Part shown: positions 4,319 to 17,394 of the stretch, one piece after another | Numbering within the stretch: position 1 is the stretch's first letter | How the letters are laid out: the number at the start of each line of letters is the position of its first letter | From: Eledone cirrhosa | Taxonomy: Eukaryota | NCBI GenBank assembly: GCA_964016885.1 | Contig: OZ024749.1 | Coordinates: 52,390,001 to 52,454,000 of the forward strand | Direction of reading: 5' to 3' | Length of the DNA: 64,000 nucleotides | The notes under the pieces: model-generated | What the model was told of the DNA's origin: nothing | Database searches by the model: none | Seen by the model: the letters and a program-made list of their open reading frames with translations, nothing else | Translations under genes and position numbers: made by a program

Positions 4319-4553
4319 ATGCCCAAACGTTCTGCAAGTTCCAAAGATGAAGGAAAGGCAGCAGATTCTAAGAAATCAAAGACTCAGGCTCCTCTCTTGG
4401 AGGAAATTCAAGAATCTCGTATAAAATGTGCAAAATCTATTCAAGATTTCAAATTCAATAAAAAACGAGTTCGTTTATTAAACGAAGTTGAAGAATTTCT
4501 TGAAGGTTCTGATGGAGTTCTCTATTGGATGGTTCGTGACCAGAGGGTTGAAG
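4319..4553 (+). CDS. phr: Photolyase coding exon 1 ([10 protein letters not shown]...[10 protein letters not shown])
   Basis: ATG at 4319; basic NLS-like N-terminus; donor G|GTATGT at 4554; candidate acceptors at AG 4226-4227 and 4245-4246. Confidence 0.9.
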
Positions 4554-7500
4554 GTATGTCCATGCTTTATTGTGACTTTTATCAAATATAATAATAGTAA
4601 TACCAGTTGTTTATTGTAATTTCTTTAGTGTTAATCATGTTTAAATTTATAGAACTATCCAACCCACATAAAAATCTCTGATAAGGTAGTGAATTGACAA
4701 TATCGGTAGAGTGTCGGACACCATGCTTTGTGGCATATAGTTACAGCCCTTTACTGTCTGTGTTCGAATCTGACTGGGGTCAACTTTGCTTTTCATCCTT
4801 TCGTGGTCGATAAAATAAAGGATCAGTCAAGTACTGGGGTTGATTTAATCGACTTTCCCCTCTTCCAAAATTCTTGGCCTGGCACCTAAATCAGAAACCA
4901 TTATATTTTTTCATTCCAGATAATTGGGCTATGCTGTTTGCCCAAAGACTCGCCCTTAAAGAAAAGACATCTCTTCATGTATGTTTTTCTGTGGTAGTTC
5001 CATATCTTGAGGCAACCAGACGGCATTACCATTTTCTCTTGAATGGACTGAAGGAAGTTGAAACGGTTTGTTACAATTTTTTTTAAAGTATTTGTTTTCA
5101 TTTTATTTAAAAGATATTAGTATGACGCTAACTACACAGCCATACCTACACCTACACTACCACCTTAACCACACAGCCATACCTACACCTACACTACCAC
5201 CTTAACCACACAGCCATACCTACACCTATACTACCACCTTAACCACACAGCCATACCTACACCTATACTACCACCTTAACCACACATCCATACCGACACC
5301 TATACTACCACCTTAACCACACAGTCATACCTACACCTATACTGTACTAATCTACCACCATAACTACGTCTGTACCTAAGATGGCTGTTCATAATTCTGT
5401 AGTGTTGGCAGTATCGGTAGAGAGTCGGACGCCATGCTTTGCAGCATAGAGTTACCTCCCTTTACGATCTGAGTTCAAATCCCGCCGAGGTTCACTTTGC
5501 CTTTCATCCTTATGGGGTCGATAAAATAAAGTACCAGTAATACACTGGGGAAATTGCTGGCCTTGTGCCAAAAGTAGACACAATTATAAAATTATATTTA
5601 TTGCTATATTTTTCTTCTTTCATCTTCTTTCCACAGGAATGCAACAGTTTAGACATTCAGTTCCATCTTTTGGAAGGGGATCCCTCTTCTGAAGTATCTA
5701 ATTTGGTAAAAGAGTTGAGTATTGGCACCGTTGTCACTGATTTCAGCCCCTTAAAACTACCTAGAAAATGGCTGAGTGATTTATCTGACTCTCTTCCTAA
5801 AAATGTTGGCTTGTGCCAGGTGAGACTGATTGTTCTCATTATGGATATCATCATCATTGCCATCACCATCACCACCACCATCACCACCATTATCATCACC
5901 ACCACCATCATCACCACCATCACCACCATTATCATCACCACCACCATCATCACCACCATCACCACCATTATCATCACCACCACCACCATCATCACCACCA
6001 CCATCACCATCACACCACCACCATCATCATCACCATCATCATCTTTATTTGTCCCTTTTAAACCCAATACATATATAGCAGTGAATACACAAACATCTGT
6101 CCCCTTTTACAACTGGCACATATATAGCAGTGAATACACAAACATCTGTCCCCTTTTACAACTGGTACATATATAGCAATGAATACACAAACATCTGTCC
6201 CCTTTTACAACTGGTACATATATAGCAGTGAATACACAAACATCTGACCCCTTTTAAACTCGATACATATAGCAATGAATACACACACCTGTCCCCTTTT
6301 TAAGGATAATTTATATTTATTCTGTTGGTTTTATCTTTCAGGTGGATACCCACAATATTGTTCCATGCTGGATAACATCTGAGAAGCAAGAATATGGGGC
6401 CAGAACAATTAGAAACAAAATTCACAGCCAGTTATGTAACTTTCTCACTGAGTTCCCTCCAGTTATCAAGCATCCATACAAAGCCAAAAATGAAGCAAAG
6501 GTAAATTCTATTTCTTTAACCCTTTAACATTTACATTACTTTATATTTACTATTATATTTTCACAGTAAACACTTTATCTCACATAATATTGAGTATACG
6601 AGATTTTGATGTTATTTATTTTGAGAACAATACCTTAACAAGAGTATGTCCGGTTATAGCCAGTTTGAACAGAAAGGGGTGGGAGAATTCTGGCTGGATA
6701 TGGCCGGTTTAACCCTTTACCATTTACACTACTCTATATTTACTATTGTATTTTCATAGTAAAGGCTTTACCTCAAATAATATCGAATCTATGAGATTTA
6801 TTTATTTTAATCTATGTTATTTATTTTGAGAACAATACCTTAACATTGGTATGAATGGCTGGTTACAGCCGGTTTGAACAGAAAGAGGTGAGAGGATTTT
6901 GGCCGGATACAGCTGGTTTAAATGCTAAAGGGTTAAACTTTAAATTAAAAATACCATGTTACATTGTAAATGTCATATATAAAATGAAAAAGTAACTTAT
7001 ACTCAAGTAGTAGATATAGAATAGCTTAGTTTTCTGTGTTGTAAATGTTATTTTATGTAACAAACCAGTTTATCAGAGATGAGGAAAGTAATGTCATTAT
7101 CTTCACTCTGTTTTTAAAGCAATTATTCTCTATTTTTCTAGTCAATAGATTGGAGTAAAATTGTTGCCAACTCTGATATAGATGAAAATGTGAAACCAGT
7201 AGACTGGGCAAAACCAGGCACAACTGCAGGTTATACAACATTGGAAACTTTCTGTAACGAACGCCTGAAATACTTTGCTAATGAACGTAATGATCCGACC
7301 AAGAATAGTCTAAGTAATCTTTCACCTTGGCTTCGCTTTGGTAAGATTTATATTTATATATTTTTATATAGTTATGTTGGTACCACACCATCCAGTCCAA
7401 ACTAATGAGGTTGTGTAGGTGTCACGACAAAAAACTAAAACAAAAAAAAAACACTGTCCACGCTGTAATGTGGCCGTGTATGTAACATGGTAAAAAGCTC

Positions 7501-7701
7501 CCAGTCCACACTGTAAATATGGTTGGTGTTAGGAAGGGCATCCAGCCATAGAAAACCTGCCATACAGTCCTATACGAGCGAGACGCGGTCACCCAACCAA
7601 TCTTGCCTCAAATGGGACAATTCCATACTACTACCACTACTACTACTACCACCACCACCACCACCACCACCACTACCACCACCACCACCACCACCACCAC
7701 C

Positions 7702-7751
<50 letters not shown>

Positions 7752-10700
7752 CACCACCACCACTACTACATACAGGACCTCCAAGAGAAATTTTGCAAGG
7801 CAGTACAAGACCCTTTTGGGGCCCAAAGCAGGAAAAGATCTTTCTCAAAATGGATATTGCATGGTTGCTGTGGGGCCTCGGAACAAAGAAACGGCTGGAC
7901 CCCACCTCTCATAGGCCCTGTTTACATCACTTTACTTCCCTTGTACCTGACACTTCCTCCTTGTTTCTGTAACAGGTCACATATCTCCACAGAGATGTAT
8001 ATTGGTTGTTAAAAAACTACAGAAGTCACACAAAAGCAGTGTAGATGCATTTATTGAAGAAGCTGTTATACGGAGTGAATTGGCAGATAATTATTGTTAT
8101 TATCAGAAGAATTACGACAACATTAATGGTAAGATTTAGCTTTTCTGTCATTGATTCTGTAGAATTATCATTATCTAAACTGGAATTATCATTATCTAAA
8201 CTCTAATTATCATTATCTAAACTCTAATTATTATTTAAATTGAAATTACCATTATCAAAACTGAAAAAAATCATTATCTAAACTGGAATTATCATTATAT
8301 AATCTGATTTATTTAGATTAATGTCCTCACTTTGGTTATTATAATCACCACAACATTTGACCTCTGACCCTTGCCAAAACTATTTCTGTATTTCTCAGGA
8401 GCGTATGAATGGGCTCAGAAGAGCTTGAAGCAGCATACTATGGACAAACGGGAATATATCTACTCAAAGGAAAAGTTTGAGGAAGGTAAAACACACGACC
8501 AACTCTGGAATGCTGCCCAAGTAAGAAGAATATGGCAATATATTGCTATTTTCTGTAACATGAGTTTCATTTTTGTTTTATTAATGTTGTTATTAATGTT
8601 TTTTTTTGTATATTTTCTTTACATTCATCATCATCATTATCATCATCGTTTTTACGTCCATTTTTCTATGCTTGCTTGGGTTGGATGGGTCCTTCTCAGC
8701 ACGCCATCTCTCACTCACCGTGTTACTTAGTCATCTCCTCAGTGAGTTTCAGCAATTTGAGGTCAGCTCTCACCACCTCTGCCCAGGTCTTCTTTGGTTT
8801 ACTTCTACTGTGGCTTCCTTCAACTGGTATTTCCTGGCACTTCTTCACCCAGCAATCATCATCCATGCACATCACATGTCCTGCACACCACCTCAGAGAC
8901 CTCTTAAATCCAGCTTCTCCCTCAATTCATCCAAACTCTGATTTTCTCTCACATTTATGTTGCACATCCAACGAAGCATTGTTACTTCATTTAATATTTT
9001 TTTAGGAATTACTATGTGTATGTGTAACCTTTTACTATGTATATGTGTATGTTTAACCTTTTACTATGTGTATGTTTAACCTTTTACTATGTATATGTTT
9101 AACCTTTTCCACACCATATTTCTAACGAAATACTGAGTATTTCAATAAATTAATAAAGAATTATGAGGGCTTTGTTAAAATTATTATTTCATTACTGAGA
9201 TGTTTGTAACATAACAGGATTTTATTTCAAATAATCTTGGAAGATTTAATTGAAATATGAACACATTAAAATGTCTGGTTTTGTTTTATAGAATCAGATG
9301 TAGTTTTGGGTGGGTTGGTATTAAAAACAGTTTAGTTGTCCTACCTGGTCAGTAAACTTCATGTTATTTCGAAGAATTATTTCTCTATTTTCAGATACAG
9401 CTTGTTAAAGAGGGTAAAATGCATGGTTTCCTGAGGATGTACTGGGCCAAAAAAATTCTAGAATGGTCACCTAGCCCTTCTGATGCTCTGGAGATTGCTC
9501 TGTACTTAAATGACCGATATTCTTTAGATGGCATTGATTCCAATGGTTATGTTGGTAAGTATTTCTCTAAATATTCTTGAACATTCAGAATAGAATAGAA
9601 ATTCTTCTCAGATAAATTTAATGTAGGTGTAACTTCTGATAGATAAACCTCCTCATATAGTCTGTGTTAACCCTTTCATGACCACATTTCTAATGAGATA
9701 CACTCTATTTTAATTAATGAAGAATTTCGAGGGATTTACTAAAGTTATTAATGATTTCATTACTAAGATAGTAACTTAATGTAGGGCTCTTATATAAAAT
9801 TATGTTGGAAGATTTTAATTTAAATTGGAAACCTTTAAAATGGATGGTTTTGGCTGGATTGGTAACTAAAAGGTTACTGTAGGTATAACTTCAGTTTTAT
9901 AAACCTCATTTAGTCTGTGTTCTGCAAGATTTCTTGGTATATATTTCACTATACTATTAACCATTTTGATACCAAACAAACTGTAACCACACCTGGTTCT
10001 GTCTTACAAAGTTGTTTGTTTTAAAGTGGTTTTATTTATCTGAAAACCTTCCATTATAATTTAAGTATGAACCTTTATTAAGTTATATTCCAAACACTAG
10101 ATTAATGATGAAAAACTTAGTTATATTACAAAACACCCCCATTTAAATGTTTTATTGTTTTCAAAATTATTTGGAAATCATAAGCAGTGTCTTTCATTGG
10201 AGATATGTTAACATTGCTGTTGAATTTATATTTCTTTTGTTTCCCCTAGAATTGCTATTTATTGTCTCTTTGTAGGGTGTATGTGGTCAGTTTGTGGCAT
10301 TCATGATCGTGCATGGGGGGAACGAAAGGTCTTTGGCAAGATTCGAATCATGACATATGAAGGCTGTAAGCGGAAGTTTGGTGTCGATGCATACATTACT
10401 AAATATTGCTCCAAGAATTCTAAAACAGGATAAAGTCCGACTCCCTTTCACTTCCATCTTTGTTCAAAATGTTTGTAGAAAGAGATTTTCTTTTTTGTTG
10501 TTGTTGTTGTTGTCTCCTGGCTTTATATGTATGTGTATGTTTATGTATGTATGTGTGTGTGTATATATGTTTATGTATGTATGTGTGTGTATGTATGTTT
10601 ATGTATTTATGTGTTAGTAATGTTGCTACTGTGGTAGAGAATAAATAAAATAAATAAATAACTACACTGCCTCAGTGTGAGTATGTCTTTGTGTATATGA

Positions 10701-11548
10701 GTGTGTCAATGTATGTGTGTGTTTGTTTATGTATGTGTGTTTTCAGTAAGTTTTTTTAAATTATATTTTTCAAATATTTAGTTAGATATTCCTTTCTATT
10801 AACTTCAAGTTAAAAGTTATTAAACATTCTTTCCATGTCTGGGGAGAAAGTTCCACATTTTTCTTCATTTTATTTCCTTTTCTCTGTAATATTCGTCAGA
10901 CATAGTTAACAGATCTGATCCGATTATATATATGTGTGTATATATAATGTATATATATTATTTATATATATATTATAAAGTACCAGTAATACACTGGGAT
11001 AATTGCTGGCCTTGTGCCAAAAGTAGAAACAATTATTTATATATATATTGGCAGGGACTGGCAGTATCAGTAGAAGGTCGGACACCATGCTTTGCAGCAT
11101 AGAGTTACGACCCTTTGTGGTCTGAGTTCAAATCCCACCGAGATTAACTTTGCCTTTCATCCTTAGGGGGTCAATAAAATAAAGCACCATTAATGAACTG
11201 AGATAATTGCTGGCCTTGTGCCAAAAGTAGAAACAATTATATATATGTGTGGTTGAGATGCTGTTTGGCATCTCTTTTGGTTGTTTTTATTCATGTTAAA
11301 TATTTAAGTATAGGATTTTGTGGGGGGATTACATTGTCATCAGTGTATTCCTTAAATCTTACATCTTATGTTTTTTTTCTTTTTGTATCTTTTCTTCATC
11401 TCTAGGCTGTATGTGGTCCATCTGTGGAATACACGACCAAGGTTGGGCTGAACGACAGGTTTTCGGCAAGATCCGTTTCATGAACTTTAATGGATGTAAA
11501 AGAAAATTTGATGTGAACAAATATATAATGCGTTATAAGGCCAAGTAA
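4319..11548 (+). CDS. phr: Class II CPD photolyase gene (deoxyribodipyrimidine photo-lyase): 8 shared coding exons plus two alternative last exons; 504 aa (9a) or 499 aa (9b)
   Basis: Exons 4319-4553, 4920-5065, 5637-5819, 6342-6500, 7142-7340, 7976-8128, 8399-8520 and 9395-9554 (1357 nt) join in frame through GT-AG introns to 10276-10433 (total 1515 nt) or 11406-11548 (total 1500 nt). Class II motifs present: [70 protein letters not shown]. Confidence 0.97.
4920..5065 (+). CDS. phr: Photolyase exon 2 (DNWAMLFAQ...GLKEVET)
   Basis: ttccag|AT acceptor, donor GT at 5066; phase matches exon 1. Confidence 0.93.
5130..5342. repeat. 37-bp minisatellite (intron 2)
   Basis: ccacacagccatacctacacctacactaccaccttaa at 5169, 5206 and onward. 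Confidence 0.9.
5637..5819 (+). CDS. phr: Photolyase exon 3 ([12 protein letters not shown]...VVTDFSPL...GLCQ)
   Basis: Pyrimidine tract with cacag| acceptor; donor CAG|GTGAGA. Confidence 0.93.
5848..6300. repeat. (CAC/CAT)n tract followed by a 49-bp minisatellite (intron 3)
   Basis: Direct reading; units start at 6069, 6118 and onward. Confidence 0.9.
6342..6500 (+). CDS. phr: Photolyase exon 4 ([10 protein letters not shown]...EYGARTIR...EAK)
   Basis: tttcag| acceptor; donor AAG|GTAAAT; 53 codons. Confidence 0.95.
6516..6936. mobile_element. piggyBac-like (TTAA) MITE, tandem dimer, in photolyase intron 4
   Basis: ttaa-CCCTTT...AAAGGG-ttaa ends; second unit starts at about 6709. Confidence 0.7.
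7142..7340 (+). CDS. phr: Photolyase exon 5 (SIDWSK...WAKPG...[10 protein letters not shown])
   Basis: ttttctag| acceptor; donor G|GTAAGA. Confidence 0.93.
7976..8128 (+). CDS. phr: Photolyase exon 6 (GHISPQRC...[18 protein letters not shown]...); missing from the ORF track
   Basis: aacag| acceptor; donor G|GTAAGA; translated by hand. Confidence 0.93.
8399..8520 (+). CDS. phr: Photolyase exon 7 (GAYEWAQ...[10 protein letters not shown])
   Basis: ttctcag| acceptor; donor CAA|GTAAGA. Confidence 0.95.
9395..9554 (+). CDS. phr: Photolyase exon 8 ([24 protein letters not shown]...[16 protein letters not shown]); FAD-binding core; missing from the ORF track
   Basis: ttttcag| acceptor; donor G|GTAAGT; translated by hand. 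Confidence 0.95.
10276..10433 (+). CDS. phr: Photolyase alternative last exon 9a ([52 protein letters not shown])
   Basis: ctctttgtag|GG acceptor in the correct phase; open to TAA at 10431-10433; AATAAA cluster from 10640. Confidence 0.85.
11406..11548 (+). CDS. phr: Photolyase alternative last exon 9b ([47 protein letters not shown])
   Basis: Long pyrimidine tract with tctag|GC acceptor in the same phase; TAA at 11546-11548; AATAAA at 12085. Confidence 0.92.
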
Positions 11549-12043: not shown

Positions 12044-12457
12044 ATGAAAAATGTTTCTATTTTCCTTCTCTCAGGGTTATTTGAAATAAAACAAAATAAA
12101 ACAACTATATTTTAATTATGTGTTTTAATTAAGATTGTTGATGTATGTAATTACAATTGTTAATGTGTTAATGTATGTAATTATAAGACAGCCAATTAAC
12201 AGAGTCGTTAGAATATTGGCCCTGGAACCAACTTTGTGTTTCATCGTTTGAAGAATCTCGTTAACTTTAATAAGTCATTAAATGAAACAATAATTGTTTC
12301 AGAAAGAGAATTTATTCATATAAAAAAGAACAATAAATTTTTAATTAAATTTTAGTAAAAGACATTTTATGTTGTGGAAACTTGGTGTTCTTGAAAAACC
12401 AGTTTAGGAAACAGTTATAGAGTTCACCCATTAGCATTTACATTATTCTATATTAAA

Positions 12458-15154: not shown

Positions 15155-16649
15155 TCAGTCGATATCGCAAGAAATCGTTTCTGGAAACTTCTGCTTTTCA
15201 GAAACACAGGAAGTTTTTCTGTTAGTTATGAGGGGAATCGGACTATTTTCTCTGAAATCATTTCGCGGCGGAATTATTGTTGTATCAAGGAGTTTGTTAT
15301 AGCTCTCTGTATCACAATTAATTGTAGTGCAGTCTACATCACTATCAGAAGAATGAAATCCACCGTCATTAGAATTGGTAATCCTGCCACTAATATGGTT
15401 GCTGTGGGCAAGCAGCGGCACTGGTTCGTTTATTTTCAGTCTGTCGTGAATTCGTTTATGTCTTTCTAGGTTACTCTTGTGGCTAGTTGCGTAATCACAA
15501 TGTGGACAGTTGTAGTCTTTCTGTCCATTATGGACAGACAGATGACGTCTTAGCAAAGCTTTCCGACAGAAACGTCGTCCACAAAATGGACAGGAATAGC
15601 CATTATGATGAAATATGGTTATGTGTTCTCGCAGAGATGCTTTTGTAGAGAATGTTACACCACAACATTCGAGAACTTTATCGCAGGCTTGATGCATTGT
15701 AGAAATATGTCGCTTTAGATTGTTTCGTCTGTCTGTGACGTAGCGACAGTGTGAACAAGGAAATAACTTACCACGAAATGTGTTACACACCAACATAGCT
15801 AGTTCTAAATAGTTTCTGTTCACTAAAGGAGTTTTGTATTTGAAATATGATAGATCAGTCGGCATACTGGCTTGCTTGAATTGTTGGTGATATTCTACAA
15901 GACTCAGTGGACGTGTACTACCAGCAAGGGAGGTTGGTGGAGGATAGAGTGAGTATTGTAGCCAAGCAGCAGGTAAACCGAGAGCAGCCGGTAAAGATGC
16001 TGTAGGAGACATTATTGGAATACTGCCATGGAGGTAATGGCGGCCGTTAGAACTACCAAATGGTGTAAAAGAAGTGAGAGGACTTTTCCTATTGGTCTTC
16101 TCCGAGTCTGAGTTGGGAGACTGCGGAGGGAAACGATCTGTTCGATCTATCGATCCAGGAGAATGAAGAGAAAGGCGATCGGTTCGGTCTATCGATCCAG
16201 GAGAGTGTAAAGGCAGGCGATCAGTTCGGTCTATCGATCCAGGAGAATGAAGAGAAAGTCGATCAGTTCGATCTATCGATCCAGGAGAATGAAGAGAAAG
16301 GCGATCAGTTCGGTCTATCGATCTAGGAGAATGAAGTGAAAGGCGATCAGTTCGGTCTATCGATTCAGGAGAGTGCAGAGAAAGGCGATCAGTTCGGTCT
16401 ATCGATCTAGACGAATGAAGTGAAAGGCGATCAGTTCGATCTATCGATTCAGGAGAGTGTAGAGACACGCGATCAGTTCGATCTATCAATCCAGGAGAGT
16501 GTAGAGAAATGCGATTAGTTCGATCCATCGATCTAGGAGAATGTAGAGAAAAACGATCCTTTTGTTCTATTGACCCATGAATGGAGTTGTCTCCTCCTTG
16601 AGAATTGGTTGACATCCGTGAGAGAAGATTTTCTGTCCGAGAAGAACCA
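15155..16649 (-). CDS. C2H2 zinc-finger protein, main coding exon (4 fingers; N-terminal 14-aa tandem repeats)
   Basis: 504-codon ORF. Fingers: CSHC..HISTMH, CC..HITIFH, CPFC..HLSVH, CPHC..HKRIH. Acceptor ttctctctgcag| at 16650-16651 (phase 2); first internal Met at 16615. Confidence 0.92.
16139..16558 (-). repeat. Coding 42-bp minisatellite, 10 copies (consensus DRLSLHSPGSIDRT)
   Basis: Period of 42 nt seen directly (gatccagga at 16152 and 16194); reading frame preserved. Confidence 0.95.
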
Positions 16650-17394
16650 CTGCAGAGAGAATTAACCAAACATTAGATTATCAAAAGTAGAAATACAACA
16701 ATCACGTGACTTTTTACGTCATTTACCAATTAAAGTTTAATCATATGAAAATCGATTACAAAAATCAATTTAAAACGTTTAAAAAATGCAATAATTGAGA
16801 GTATGAAGTGGATAAAATTTCAAAATTTCAATGGAAAGAAAAAAATCTAATTTTAAAAAATACATTGAATGTTGAAACAGTTTAAAAATAAAACATTTAA
16901 AAAAAACCAATATTATCTATAGATTTCTAATCGATCATGTCATCTAGTGTCAGAGCTGATCGATGAAGATATTTGCTGGACGGTATCCATAGGAGTATAT
17001 TAGAAATAAGGTCAGGCTTAACTCTCTTCAATGAACGCAATCAAAGAAAACCTTCGTATTAACAACATCACAAATCTGTAGATATTCTCCTCGATGGTTT
17101 TGCTGTCCTTTTCTGGATGTCATCGTTTTCAGATGATCTTGGGCATCCACGAAACATCACGAGGAAACACTTGATGTCGCCTACATTCGTTCGTTTAGGG
17201 CCACTCTTAATATTTCTTGGAAGGGAGCATCAGAGGACGAAACGAAGGCTATAGAACAAGATTTCTACAACTACTGTTGGAGACAAAGAGGGGAGGGGCT
17301 GGAGAGAGAGAGAGAGAGAGAGAAATGCAAGTGTTTTGCAAGACATTGCTGGAGAAGTAAACAAGAAGTGTGTGAAAATAGCATCTACAATCAC

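What the first reader, a model, noticed from the sequence alone, without database searches (positions are those of the whole stretch)
10276..10433. Exon 9a carries a prokaryote/virus-like class II signature while 9b is animal-like
Seen: 9a reads [23 protein letters not shown] and 9b reads [23 protein letters not shown]. From memory, animal and plant class II enzymes typically have HDQGW.ER..MNY, whereas the Methanosarcina mazei enzyme has [18 protein letters not shown] and poxvirus enzymes have HDRAW. Yet 9a begins with the eukaryote-style GCMWS.CG at the same intron position. Inference: either an ancient variant was retained, or 9a converged on a functionally distinct loop, or (less likely) it was captured from a virus or microbe.
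Basis: partly seen in the sequence, partly recalled or inferred. Interest (0 to 1): 0.72.

Follow-up and report, generated by a model that had tools for sequence, protein, structure and literature searches.

The report
Octopus photolyase with two DNA-grip exons
This octopus gene for a light-driven UV-damage repair enzyme has two alternative last exons that differ in the loop predicted to grip the opened DNA, and the same two-residue difference separates duplicated copies of the gene in a frog, a snail and Antarctic fishes, so it is likely a repeatedly evolved tuning switch rather than a piece captured from a microbe or virus.

Summary
Observation confirmed. The window holds a single-copy octopod class II CPD photolyase gene with eight shared exons and two intact last exons, 9a (HDRAW) and 9b (HDQGW). 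Three Octopus species have both forms annotated.

The 'prokaryote-like signature' shrinks to two residues, Arg-Ala versus Gln/Met-Gly, at M. mazei positions 429-430. These lie in the bubble-intruding loop, whose Arg429 contacts the unpaired bases opposite the lesion. YEG is common in animals; IMT is not a prokaryote trait.

HDRAW is rare outside cephalopods (2 of 118 clusters). It recurs as the difference between 90-95% identical duplicate genes in Rana temporaria, Physella acuta and notothenioid fishes, each sister to its own QG copy. 9a is an old duplicate, not a recent one: synonymous sites are largely diverged from 9b, and an orthologous exon exists in a distant cephalopod-like relative.

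Best reading: exon duplication plus convergent QG-to-RA change, probably giving two DNA-grip variants. Function is untested, no RNA of this species was available, and a 44-residue tree cannot formally exclude viral origin. No paper describing this was found.

The parts
4319..4553 (+). exon 1 (coding, from ATG) of class II CPD photolyase
   Evidence: tblastn with Octopus proteins; GT donor
4920..5065 (+). exon 2
5637..5819 (+). exon 3
6342..6500 (+). exon 4
7142..7340 (+). exon 5
7976..8128 (+). exon 6
8399..8520 (+). exon 7 (carries equivalents of Tyr345 and Trp360)
9395..9554 (+). exon 8 (equivalents of Tyr380, Trp381, Trp388, Asn403); phase-1 donor shared by 9a and 9b
10276..10433 (+). last exon 9a, coding part to the stop codon; Arg-Ala loop, IMTY
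   Evidence: 46 of 52 aa identical to O. bimaculoides isoform X1
10308..10313 (+). codons CGT GCA = Arg-Ala (M. mazei 429-430)
   Evidence: numbering from the alignment and PMC6126647
10640..10654 (+). two AATAAA hexamers, candidate poly(A) signal of the 9a isoform (inferred)
11406..11548 (+). last exon 9b, coding part to the stop codon; Gln-Gly loop, FMNF
   Evidence: 40 of 47 aa identical to O. bimaculoides isoform X2
11438..11443 (+). codons CAA GGT = Gln-Gly (M. mazei 429-430)
12085..12100 (+). two AATAAA hexamers, candidate poly(A) signal of the 9b isoform (inferred)

Best explanation
The single class II CPD photolyase gene of this octopod has two intact alternative last exons, likely from an old duplication within cephalopods, that are predicted to give two enzymes with the same core but a different DNA-gripping loop (Arg-Ala in 9a, Gln-Gly in 9b), likely tuned to different lesion contexts or binding strengths. 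Steps: (1) SHOWN: the anatomy, and its presence in three Octopus species. (2) INFERRED: exon 8 is spliced either to 9a, ending at the proximal poly(A) site, or past it to 9b. (3) SHOWN by alignment plus the paper: the differing residue is the equivalent of M. mazei Arg429, which plugs the DNA bubble and contacts the unpaired bases opposite the dimer; Asp428, Trp431 and Arg441 are kept in both exons. (4) INFERRED: 9a reached Arg-Ala by two point changes from Gln/Met-Gly, as happened independently between duplicate genes in frog, snail and notothenioid fishes. (5) PREDICTED, untested: the Arg-Ala form handles cytosine-containing dimers (G opposite) better and/or holds and releases DNA differently, while Gln-Gly is the animal default. 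My odds: duplication plus convergence about 0.85; a real biochemical difference about 0.7; lesion context as the main axis about 0.35, binding or release rate about 0.3.
For: Gene model with GT-AG introns and two open isoforms. Both isoforms are annotated in O. bimaculoides, O. sinensis and O. vulgaris. 9a is as conserved as the rest of the gene: 46/52 versus 385/451 for exons 1-8 and 40/47 for 9b against O. bimaculoides. 9a and 9b share 30 of 46 residues but only 10 of 26 shared degenerate codons. An unnamed cephalopod-like relative (P0026, 68% identical to Octopus) has a 9a-type end with RAWGER..KIRIMT in 5 of 5 full-length cluster members, as uninterrupted ORFs on contigs of about 2 kb, i.e. 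presumably spliced RNA. It groups with 9a at 100/95. RA versus QG/MG separates near-identical copies: Rana temporaria 538/565 identical, Physella acuta 592/622, notothenioids 458/508, an unnamed JGI pair 462/515. On the tree without the last exon each RA copy groups with its QG/MG partner at SH-aLRT 98-100. The two positions covary: in 113 parsed of 150 broad representatives, Arg is followed by Ala/Pro in 60 of 65 and Gln/Met by Gly in 41 of 43. In 113 background clusters these columns are 99% Gln and 100% Gly. Role of Arg429, its replacement by Gln/Met/His, and the suggested link to tolerance of C-containing dimers: PMC6126647 (passages). This loop is displaced at product release: PMC10819086 (whole text).
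Against: No enzyme data exist for either isoform. No RNA run of this species was listed, so splicing here is inferred. PMC6126647 treats Arg/Gln/Met/His at 429 as interchangeable bulky residues, which fits near-neutrality. The duplicate pairs were found by starting from RA-bearing hits, so duplicates without the change were not counted. RA occurs with no QG sibling seen in Diamesa midges (9 of 9 sequences) and in the P0026 cluster. That the JGI pair comes from one genome is not shown. The last-exon tree cannot place 9a: sisterhood with 9b is not the best placement (4.6 log units behind the virus placement, p-AU 0.35), and a tree with 9a held to prokaryotes scored 6.2 units higher than the free search. 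9a and 9b also differ in 14 other residues, the C-terminal tail and the 3' UTR, any of which could be the selected difference.
Confidence: 0.62

Rival explanations
1. Old exon duplication kept for regulation: different 3' UTRs or C-terminal tails set expression, stability or organelle targeting, and the loop change is a tolerated by-product.
For: The isoforms have separate candidate poly(A) signals and different tails. PMC6126647 says position 429 accepts several bulky residues. C-terminal targeting signals in plant class II photolyase are recalled, not checked.
Against: It does not explain why the same two otherwise near-invariant columns change between whole-gene duplicates in frog, snail and fish, nor the Arg/Ala coupling.
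Confidence: 0.15
2. Near-neutral toggling: QG and RA are two equally good compensated states two point mutations apart, and duplicates drift from one to the other under relaxed constraint.
For: Each change needs one nucleotide (codons). An intermediate RG exists in Patella vulgata. RA copies carry other departures from consensus, such as Asn414-to-Ile in the Rana RA copy. Diamesa appears to live with RA alone.
Against: RA is in only 2 of 118 non-cephalopod clusters, and both of those have a QG sibling. 9a has stayed as conserved as the core exons. RA is kept across seven notothenioid genera.
Confidence: 0.14
3. 9a was captured from a virus or microbe, by insertion or by gene conversion onto a duplicated exon.
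For: With all 44 columns the best placement of the 9a group is beside entomopoxvirus MSV235, which has CMWSICG together with HDRAW. Holding 9a with prokaryotes is not rejected (p-AU 0.63).
Against: That preference disappears when the two loop columns are removed. 16 of 23 placements in or beside prokaryotes are rejected with all columns, and 21 of 23 without the two. 9a starts at the same phase-1 site as 9b, a site that a Mya cluster fragment suggests is also an intron in bivalves (P0022). Searches with 9a found nothing close outside cephalopods. Viral contigs gave 1 relative among 12 pattern hits, over residues 2-17 only. GC3 is ordinary: 20/52 versus 154/452 in the core and 21/47 in 9b.
Confidence: 0.05
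4. RA is an ancient pre-animal variant retained as a second exon since early eukaryotes.
For: RA/RP is the commonest state in proteins lacking the CMW motif (59 of 96), and RA occurs in some unnamed alga-like proteins.
Against: No bivalve, gastropod, chiton or annelid hit showed a 9a-type end with IMT (one representative per cluster, isoforms seen for only a few). The other animal RA cases are recent duplicates nested in QG lineages.
Confidence: 0.04

Closest known systems
Octopus bimaculoides / O. sinensis / O. vulgaris deoxyribodipyrimidine photo-lyase isoforms (XP_052830650.1/651.1, XP_029648244.1/245.1, CAI9736512.1/511.1)
   Same: Orthologous gene with the same two last exons: RA-type 503 aa and MG-type 498 aa.
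   Different: Database annotation only; no paper on them was found. 9b has QG here and MG there.
[quoted passage not shown]
   Same: Same fold (TM 0.83-0.85 for the model of the O. bimaculoides 9a isoform). Trp381/360/388, Tyr345, Asp428, Trp431, Arg441 kept; 9a shares HDRAWGER.
   Different: About 45% identity; single form; 9a has CMWSVCG and IMT where M. mazei has AWSIGG and YMS.
Duplicate class II photolyase genes of Rana temporaria, Physella acuta and notothenioid fishes
   Same: An RA copy beside a QG copy in the same genome.
   Different: Whole-gene duplicates, 90-95% identical and independent in origin; octopods use two last exons of one gene.
Tandemly duplicated alternative last exons in general (recalled)
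   Same: Homologous exons used one at a time to swap a functional C-terminal module.
   Different: None was found reported for a photolyase in the searches run.

Membership tests
Class II CPD photolyase | Scores above the curated cut-off of TIGR00591 (phr2) | tested here: met
   O. bimaculoides orthologous isoforms score 699 and 710 bits against a cut-off of 550; the two window exons match the model's last 43 positions. The window's whole spliced protein was not scanned.
Class II CPD photolyase | Class II Trp triad (381/360/388) with Tyr345 | tested here: met
   All present by ungapped offset from His427 in both window isoforms; residue roles from PMC5885780 passages.
Class II CPD photolyase | Bubble-intruding bolt Asp428, Trp431, Arg441 with a bulky residue at 429 | tested here: met
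   D/W/R in both exons; 429 is Arg in 9a and Gln in 9b (PMC6126647).
Class II CPD photolyase | Class II photolyase fold | tested here: met
   AlphaFold2 model of the O. bimaculoides 9a isoform, pLDDT 92.3; the top 44 Foldseek hits are class II photolyases. The 9b isoform was not modelled.
Class II CPD photolyase | FAD binding and light-driven CPD repair | not testable with these tools
   Needs enzyme assays.
Alternative (duplicated) last exons | Two homologous exons with same-phase acceptors, own stop codon and own poly(A) signal | tested here: met
   the poly(A) signals are consensus matches only.
Alternative (duplicated) last exons | Both junctions seen in RNA | tested here: inconclusive
   No RNA holder was listed for this species. 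Indirect: both isoforms annotated in three Octopus species; a 9a-type end in uninterrupted ORFs of a relative.
Horizontally acquired exon | Nests within a foreign clade with support, and native placement is rejected | tested here: inconclusive
   Neither sister-to-9b nor sister-to-virus is rejected; most placements in or beside prokaryotes are rejected.
Horizontally acquired exon | A close foreign donor sequence or foreign composition | tested here: not met
   (no close donor; the searches are word-limited); GC3 ordinary.

The most novel reading that the evidence does not exclude
Animal class II photolyases have a two-residue specificity switch (Gln/Met-Gly to Arg-Ala at 429-430) in the DNA bubble-gripping loop. 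It has been flipped independently at least four times after duplication (octopods by exon duplication; frog, snail and Antarctic fishes by gene duplication) to add a second repair enzyme for a different class of UV lesions or conditions. In cephalopods, which are reported to lack 6-4 photolyase and CRY-DASH, splicing would supply two photorepair specificities from the one remaining photolyase gene.
Probability: 0.4. Interest if true: 0.72.

Novelty: new variant of a known kind. Interest (0 to 1): 0.52.

Why it matters
Structural work on class II photolyase shows that position 429 contacts the bases opposite the lesion and varies between Arg, Gln, Met and His. I found no test of what that variation does. 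Here nature supplies matched pairs: two octopus isoforms identical over about 450 residues, and frog, snail and fish duplicates 90-95% identical, that differ at this site. That makes the question directly testable and points to repeated specialisation of UV repair in animals. It also shows that a 'prokaryote-like' motif in an animal exon can be convergence and not gene transfer.

Tried and rejected
RNA evidence: no RNA holder was listed, which is no evidence either way. The three runs laid are DNA-like contig sets of one sample, possibly the source. They cover 9a at the depth of exon 8 (7.9/12.7/5.7 versus 8.4/12.6/6.2) and say nothing on splicing; 9b was not covered by that call.

A chance figure of about 2e-8 for four pairs hitting the same two conserved columns is rejected as circular, because the pairs were found through RA.

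Exon-only phylogeny: the free search missed a better tree, four of six constraint tests and the no-loop-columns tree did not finish, and the placement test could not choose among animal, viral and sister-to-9b positions. One alga-like row with an insertion was left out of both.

'YEGCKRKF is prokaryotic' is rejected. Cold adaptation was considered (icefishes, Diamesa, Rana temporaria; habitats recalled) but not adopted, since Physella and Octopus do not fit and it was not tested. No similarity was found between the intron flanks of 9a and 9b beyond one 81-base 75% match and short repeats.

No named squid, cuttlefish or nautilus protein appeared among the 120 listed hits. Kiontke 2011 and 2014 were not held. 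No earlier scan findings. Literature searches listed no paper on photolyase last-exon isoforms or RA/QG duplicates; most subscription journals are not covered and supplements were not read.

Full report
Observation. The two peptides are in the window as described. The closest named proteins are Octopus photolyases, and the genome is 3.0 Gb, so the source is an octopod. tblastn and splice-site checks give eight shared coding exons (4319-9554) and two last exons, 9a at 10276-10433 and 9b at 11406-11548. All introns are GT-AG, both last exons take the phase-1 donor of exon 8, and the spliced frames are open at 504 and 499 aa. AATAAA lies at 10640/10649 and 12085/12095, with one more at 11173. The genome search returns two matches for exon 9 and one for exon 8, so this looks like one gene with a doubled last exon. 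Three DNA contig sets of one sample cover 9a at the depth of exon 8.

Conservation and age. O. bimaculoides, O. sinensis and O. vulgaris each have both forms annotated, a 503-aa RA form and a 498-aa MG form; the one Argonauta model listed is 9b-type. Against O. bimaculoides, 9a is 46/52 identical, 9b 40/47 and exons 1-8 385/451, so 9a is not decaying. 9a and 9b share 30 of 46 residues and 92 of 138 bases, and only 10 of 26 shared degenerate codons are identical, so the duplication is old. An unnamed Logan cluster (P0026, 68% identical to Octopus, sister to the octopods at SH-aLRT 100) ends in a 9a-type sequence with RAWGER and KIRIMT in 5 of its 5 full-length members. These are uninterrupted ORFs on 1.8-2.2 kb contigs, which I read as spliced RNA. 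That end groups with the octopod 9a exons at 100/95. I infer that the duplication predates the split of that lineage from octopods. No 9b-type member was seen in that cluster, and no named squid, cuttlefish or nautilus protein was among the 120 listed hits.

What the signature is. Among the 120 best clusters of a full-length search (all named ones animals; 6820 passed the threshold, 120 listed), 115 have HDQGW, 4 HDRAW (2 cephalopod, Physella acuta, Rana temporaria) and 1 HDRGW (Patella vulgata). YEG is in 14 of the 118 non-cephalopod clusters. IMT is only in the 2 cephalopods and, in another search, in a chicory duplicate. The CMWSVCG start is eukaryote-like. So the prokaryote-like part is two residues. 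With the spacing D, R+1, W+3, R+13 from PMC6126647 (passages seen) and the alignment, they are M. mazei 429-430. The same ungapped offset recovers Tyr345, Trp360, Tyr380, Trp381, Trp388 and Tyr445 (roles from passages of PMC5885780). PMC6126647 states that Arg429 plugs the unpaired bubble, contacts dA7' directly and through a water, may allow tolerance of C-containing dimers, and is replaced in other class II enzymes by Gln, Met or His. PMC10819086 (whole text) says this region is displaced when the repaired bases leave. Tyr445, a side electron donor candidate in PMC5885780, is Tyr in 9a and Phe in 9b. An AlphaFold2 model of the O. bimaculoides 9a isoform (pLDDT 92.3, 77 over residues 461-470) matches M. 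mazei and rice class II structures (TM 0.83-0.88); it was not docked on DNA.

The same change elsewhere. Rana temporaria has two gene series on contigs of the same length, one RA and one QG, 538 of 565 identical. Physella acuta has two on contigs of the same length, 592 of 622 identical. In notothenioids, 12 of 15 listed cluster members are RA, 2 are QG and one fused model holds both; Champsocephalus gunnari has them under consecutive locus tags, and the Pseudochaenichthys pair is 458 of 508 identical. An unnamed JGI pair differs by RA versus MG at 462 of 515 identity, but one genome is not shown. On a tree built without the last exon, each RA copy groups with its own QG/MG partner at SH-aLRT 98-100 (quick tree, 57 rows), so these origins are independent. 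At columns at least 95% conserved in 113 background clusters, the five pairs differ at 4, 5, 9, 10 and 4 places, and only these two columns are shared by all five. I do not use the probability computed there, since the pairs were found through RA. Across 113 parsed of 150 broad representatives, Arg goes with Ala/Pro in 60 of 65 and Gln/Met with Gly in 41 of 43. Against the pattern: Diamesa midges show RA in 9 of 9 sequences with no QG sibling seen, and duplicates without the change were not counted.

Capture test. The 44-column tree keeps 9a, 9b and prokaryotes as three groups, but a tree holding 9a with prokaryotes scored 6.2 log units higher than the free search (p-AU 0.63), and four other constraints did not finish. 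Placing the 9a group on each of 107 branches of the core tree, the best place with all columns is beside entomopoxvirus MSV235. Sister-to-9b is 4.6 behind (p 0.35), and 16 of 23 prokaryote placements are rejected. Without the two loop columns the best place is a crab branch, sister-to-9b is 2.1 behind, the virus 2.9, and 21 of 23 prokaryote placements are rejected. The tree therefore neither shows nor excludes capture. The case against capture rests on four things: the identical phase-1 start of both exons; a 57-aa Mya cluster fragment that runs off at the same point, suggesting the intron is older than cephalopods (P0022); the lack of a close donor; and repeated native origins of RA.

Mechanism. 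Exon 8 is likely joined to 9a with proximal polyadenylation or to 9b with distal polyadenylation (inferred; no RNA run was listed). The products share the core and differ in the bubble-intruding loop, the following strand, the last helix and the tail. I judge a real biochemical difference likely (about 0.7), most plausibly in how the enzyme holds the bases opposite the dimer, and hence in lesion context or in binding and release. This is untested. PMC10733189 (passages) reports that cephalopods lack 6-4 photolyase and CRY-DASH, which makes a second form from this gene plausible but is no evidence for it.

Novelty. The family and the role of the loop are known, and both isoforms sit in database annotation. 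Nine searches of the held library listed no paper on photolyase last-exon isoforms or on RA/QG duplicates. Passages of PMC9498864 and PMC7553075 did not mention them, and PMC12153352 (passages) had no bearing. Subscription journals and supplements were not seen. Verdict: real feature, new variant of a known kind, interest 0.52.

Noticed in passing
window 9395-9554 (exon 8): The usual DGRDPNG motif reads DGIDSNG here (I/M/L and S in all cephalopod-type proteins seen); RPN holds in 104 of 120 clusters. By offset this is M. mazei Arg411, which I recall as an 8-HDF antenna-binding residue; the paper was not held.
   Followed up: partly
window 15155-16672, minus strand: 505-aa open frame (stop to stop) with several C2H2-type zinc-finger motifs and about ten tandem 13-aa repeats, convergent with the photolyase gene.
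   Followed up: no
proteins P0025, P0081, P0085 (Armadillidium): Duplicate photolyase copies in which the same loop reads HDQMSW (insertion) beside an HDQGW copy in a fused model: another post-duplication change in this loop.
   Followed up: no
proteins P0044, P0121 (Cichorium intybus): Neighbouring duplicates with HDHGW..IMTY versus HDQGW..CMTY; IMT matches octopod 9a by apparent convergence.
   Followed up: no
proteins P0060, P0071, P0118, P0295: Unnamed eukaryote-type proteins of about 640 aa with HDRAWGP plus a one-residue insertion; P0071 also carries Pfam PF08711.
   Followed up: no
protein P0281: A 4593-aa representative with 18 photolyase-matching stretches, a possible tandem array or fused gene model.
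   Followed up: no
window 8648-8908 and 9605-9865: Very high-copy interspersed repeats in introns 7 and 8, with contig depth above 100,000.
   Followed up: no
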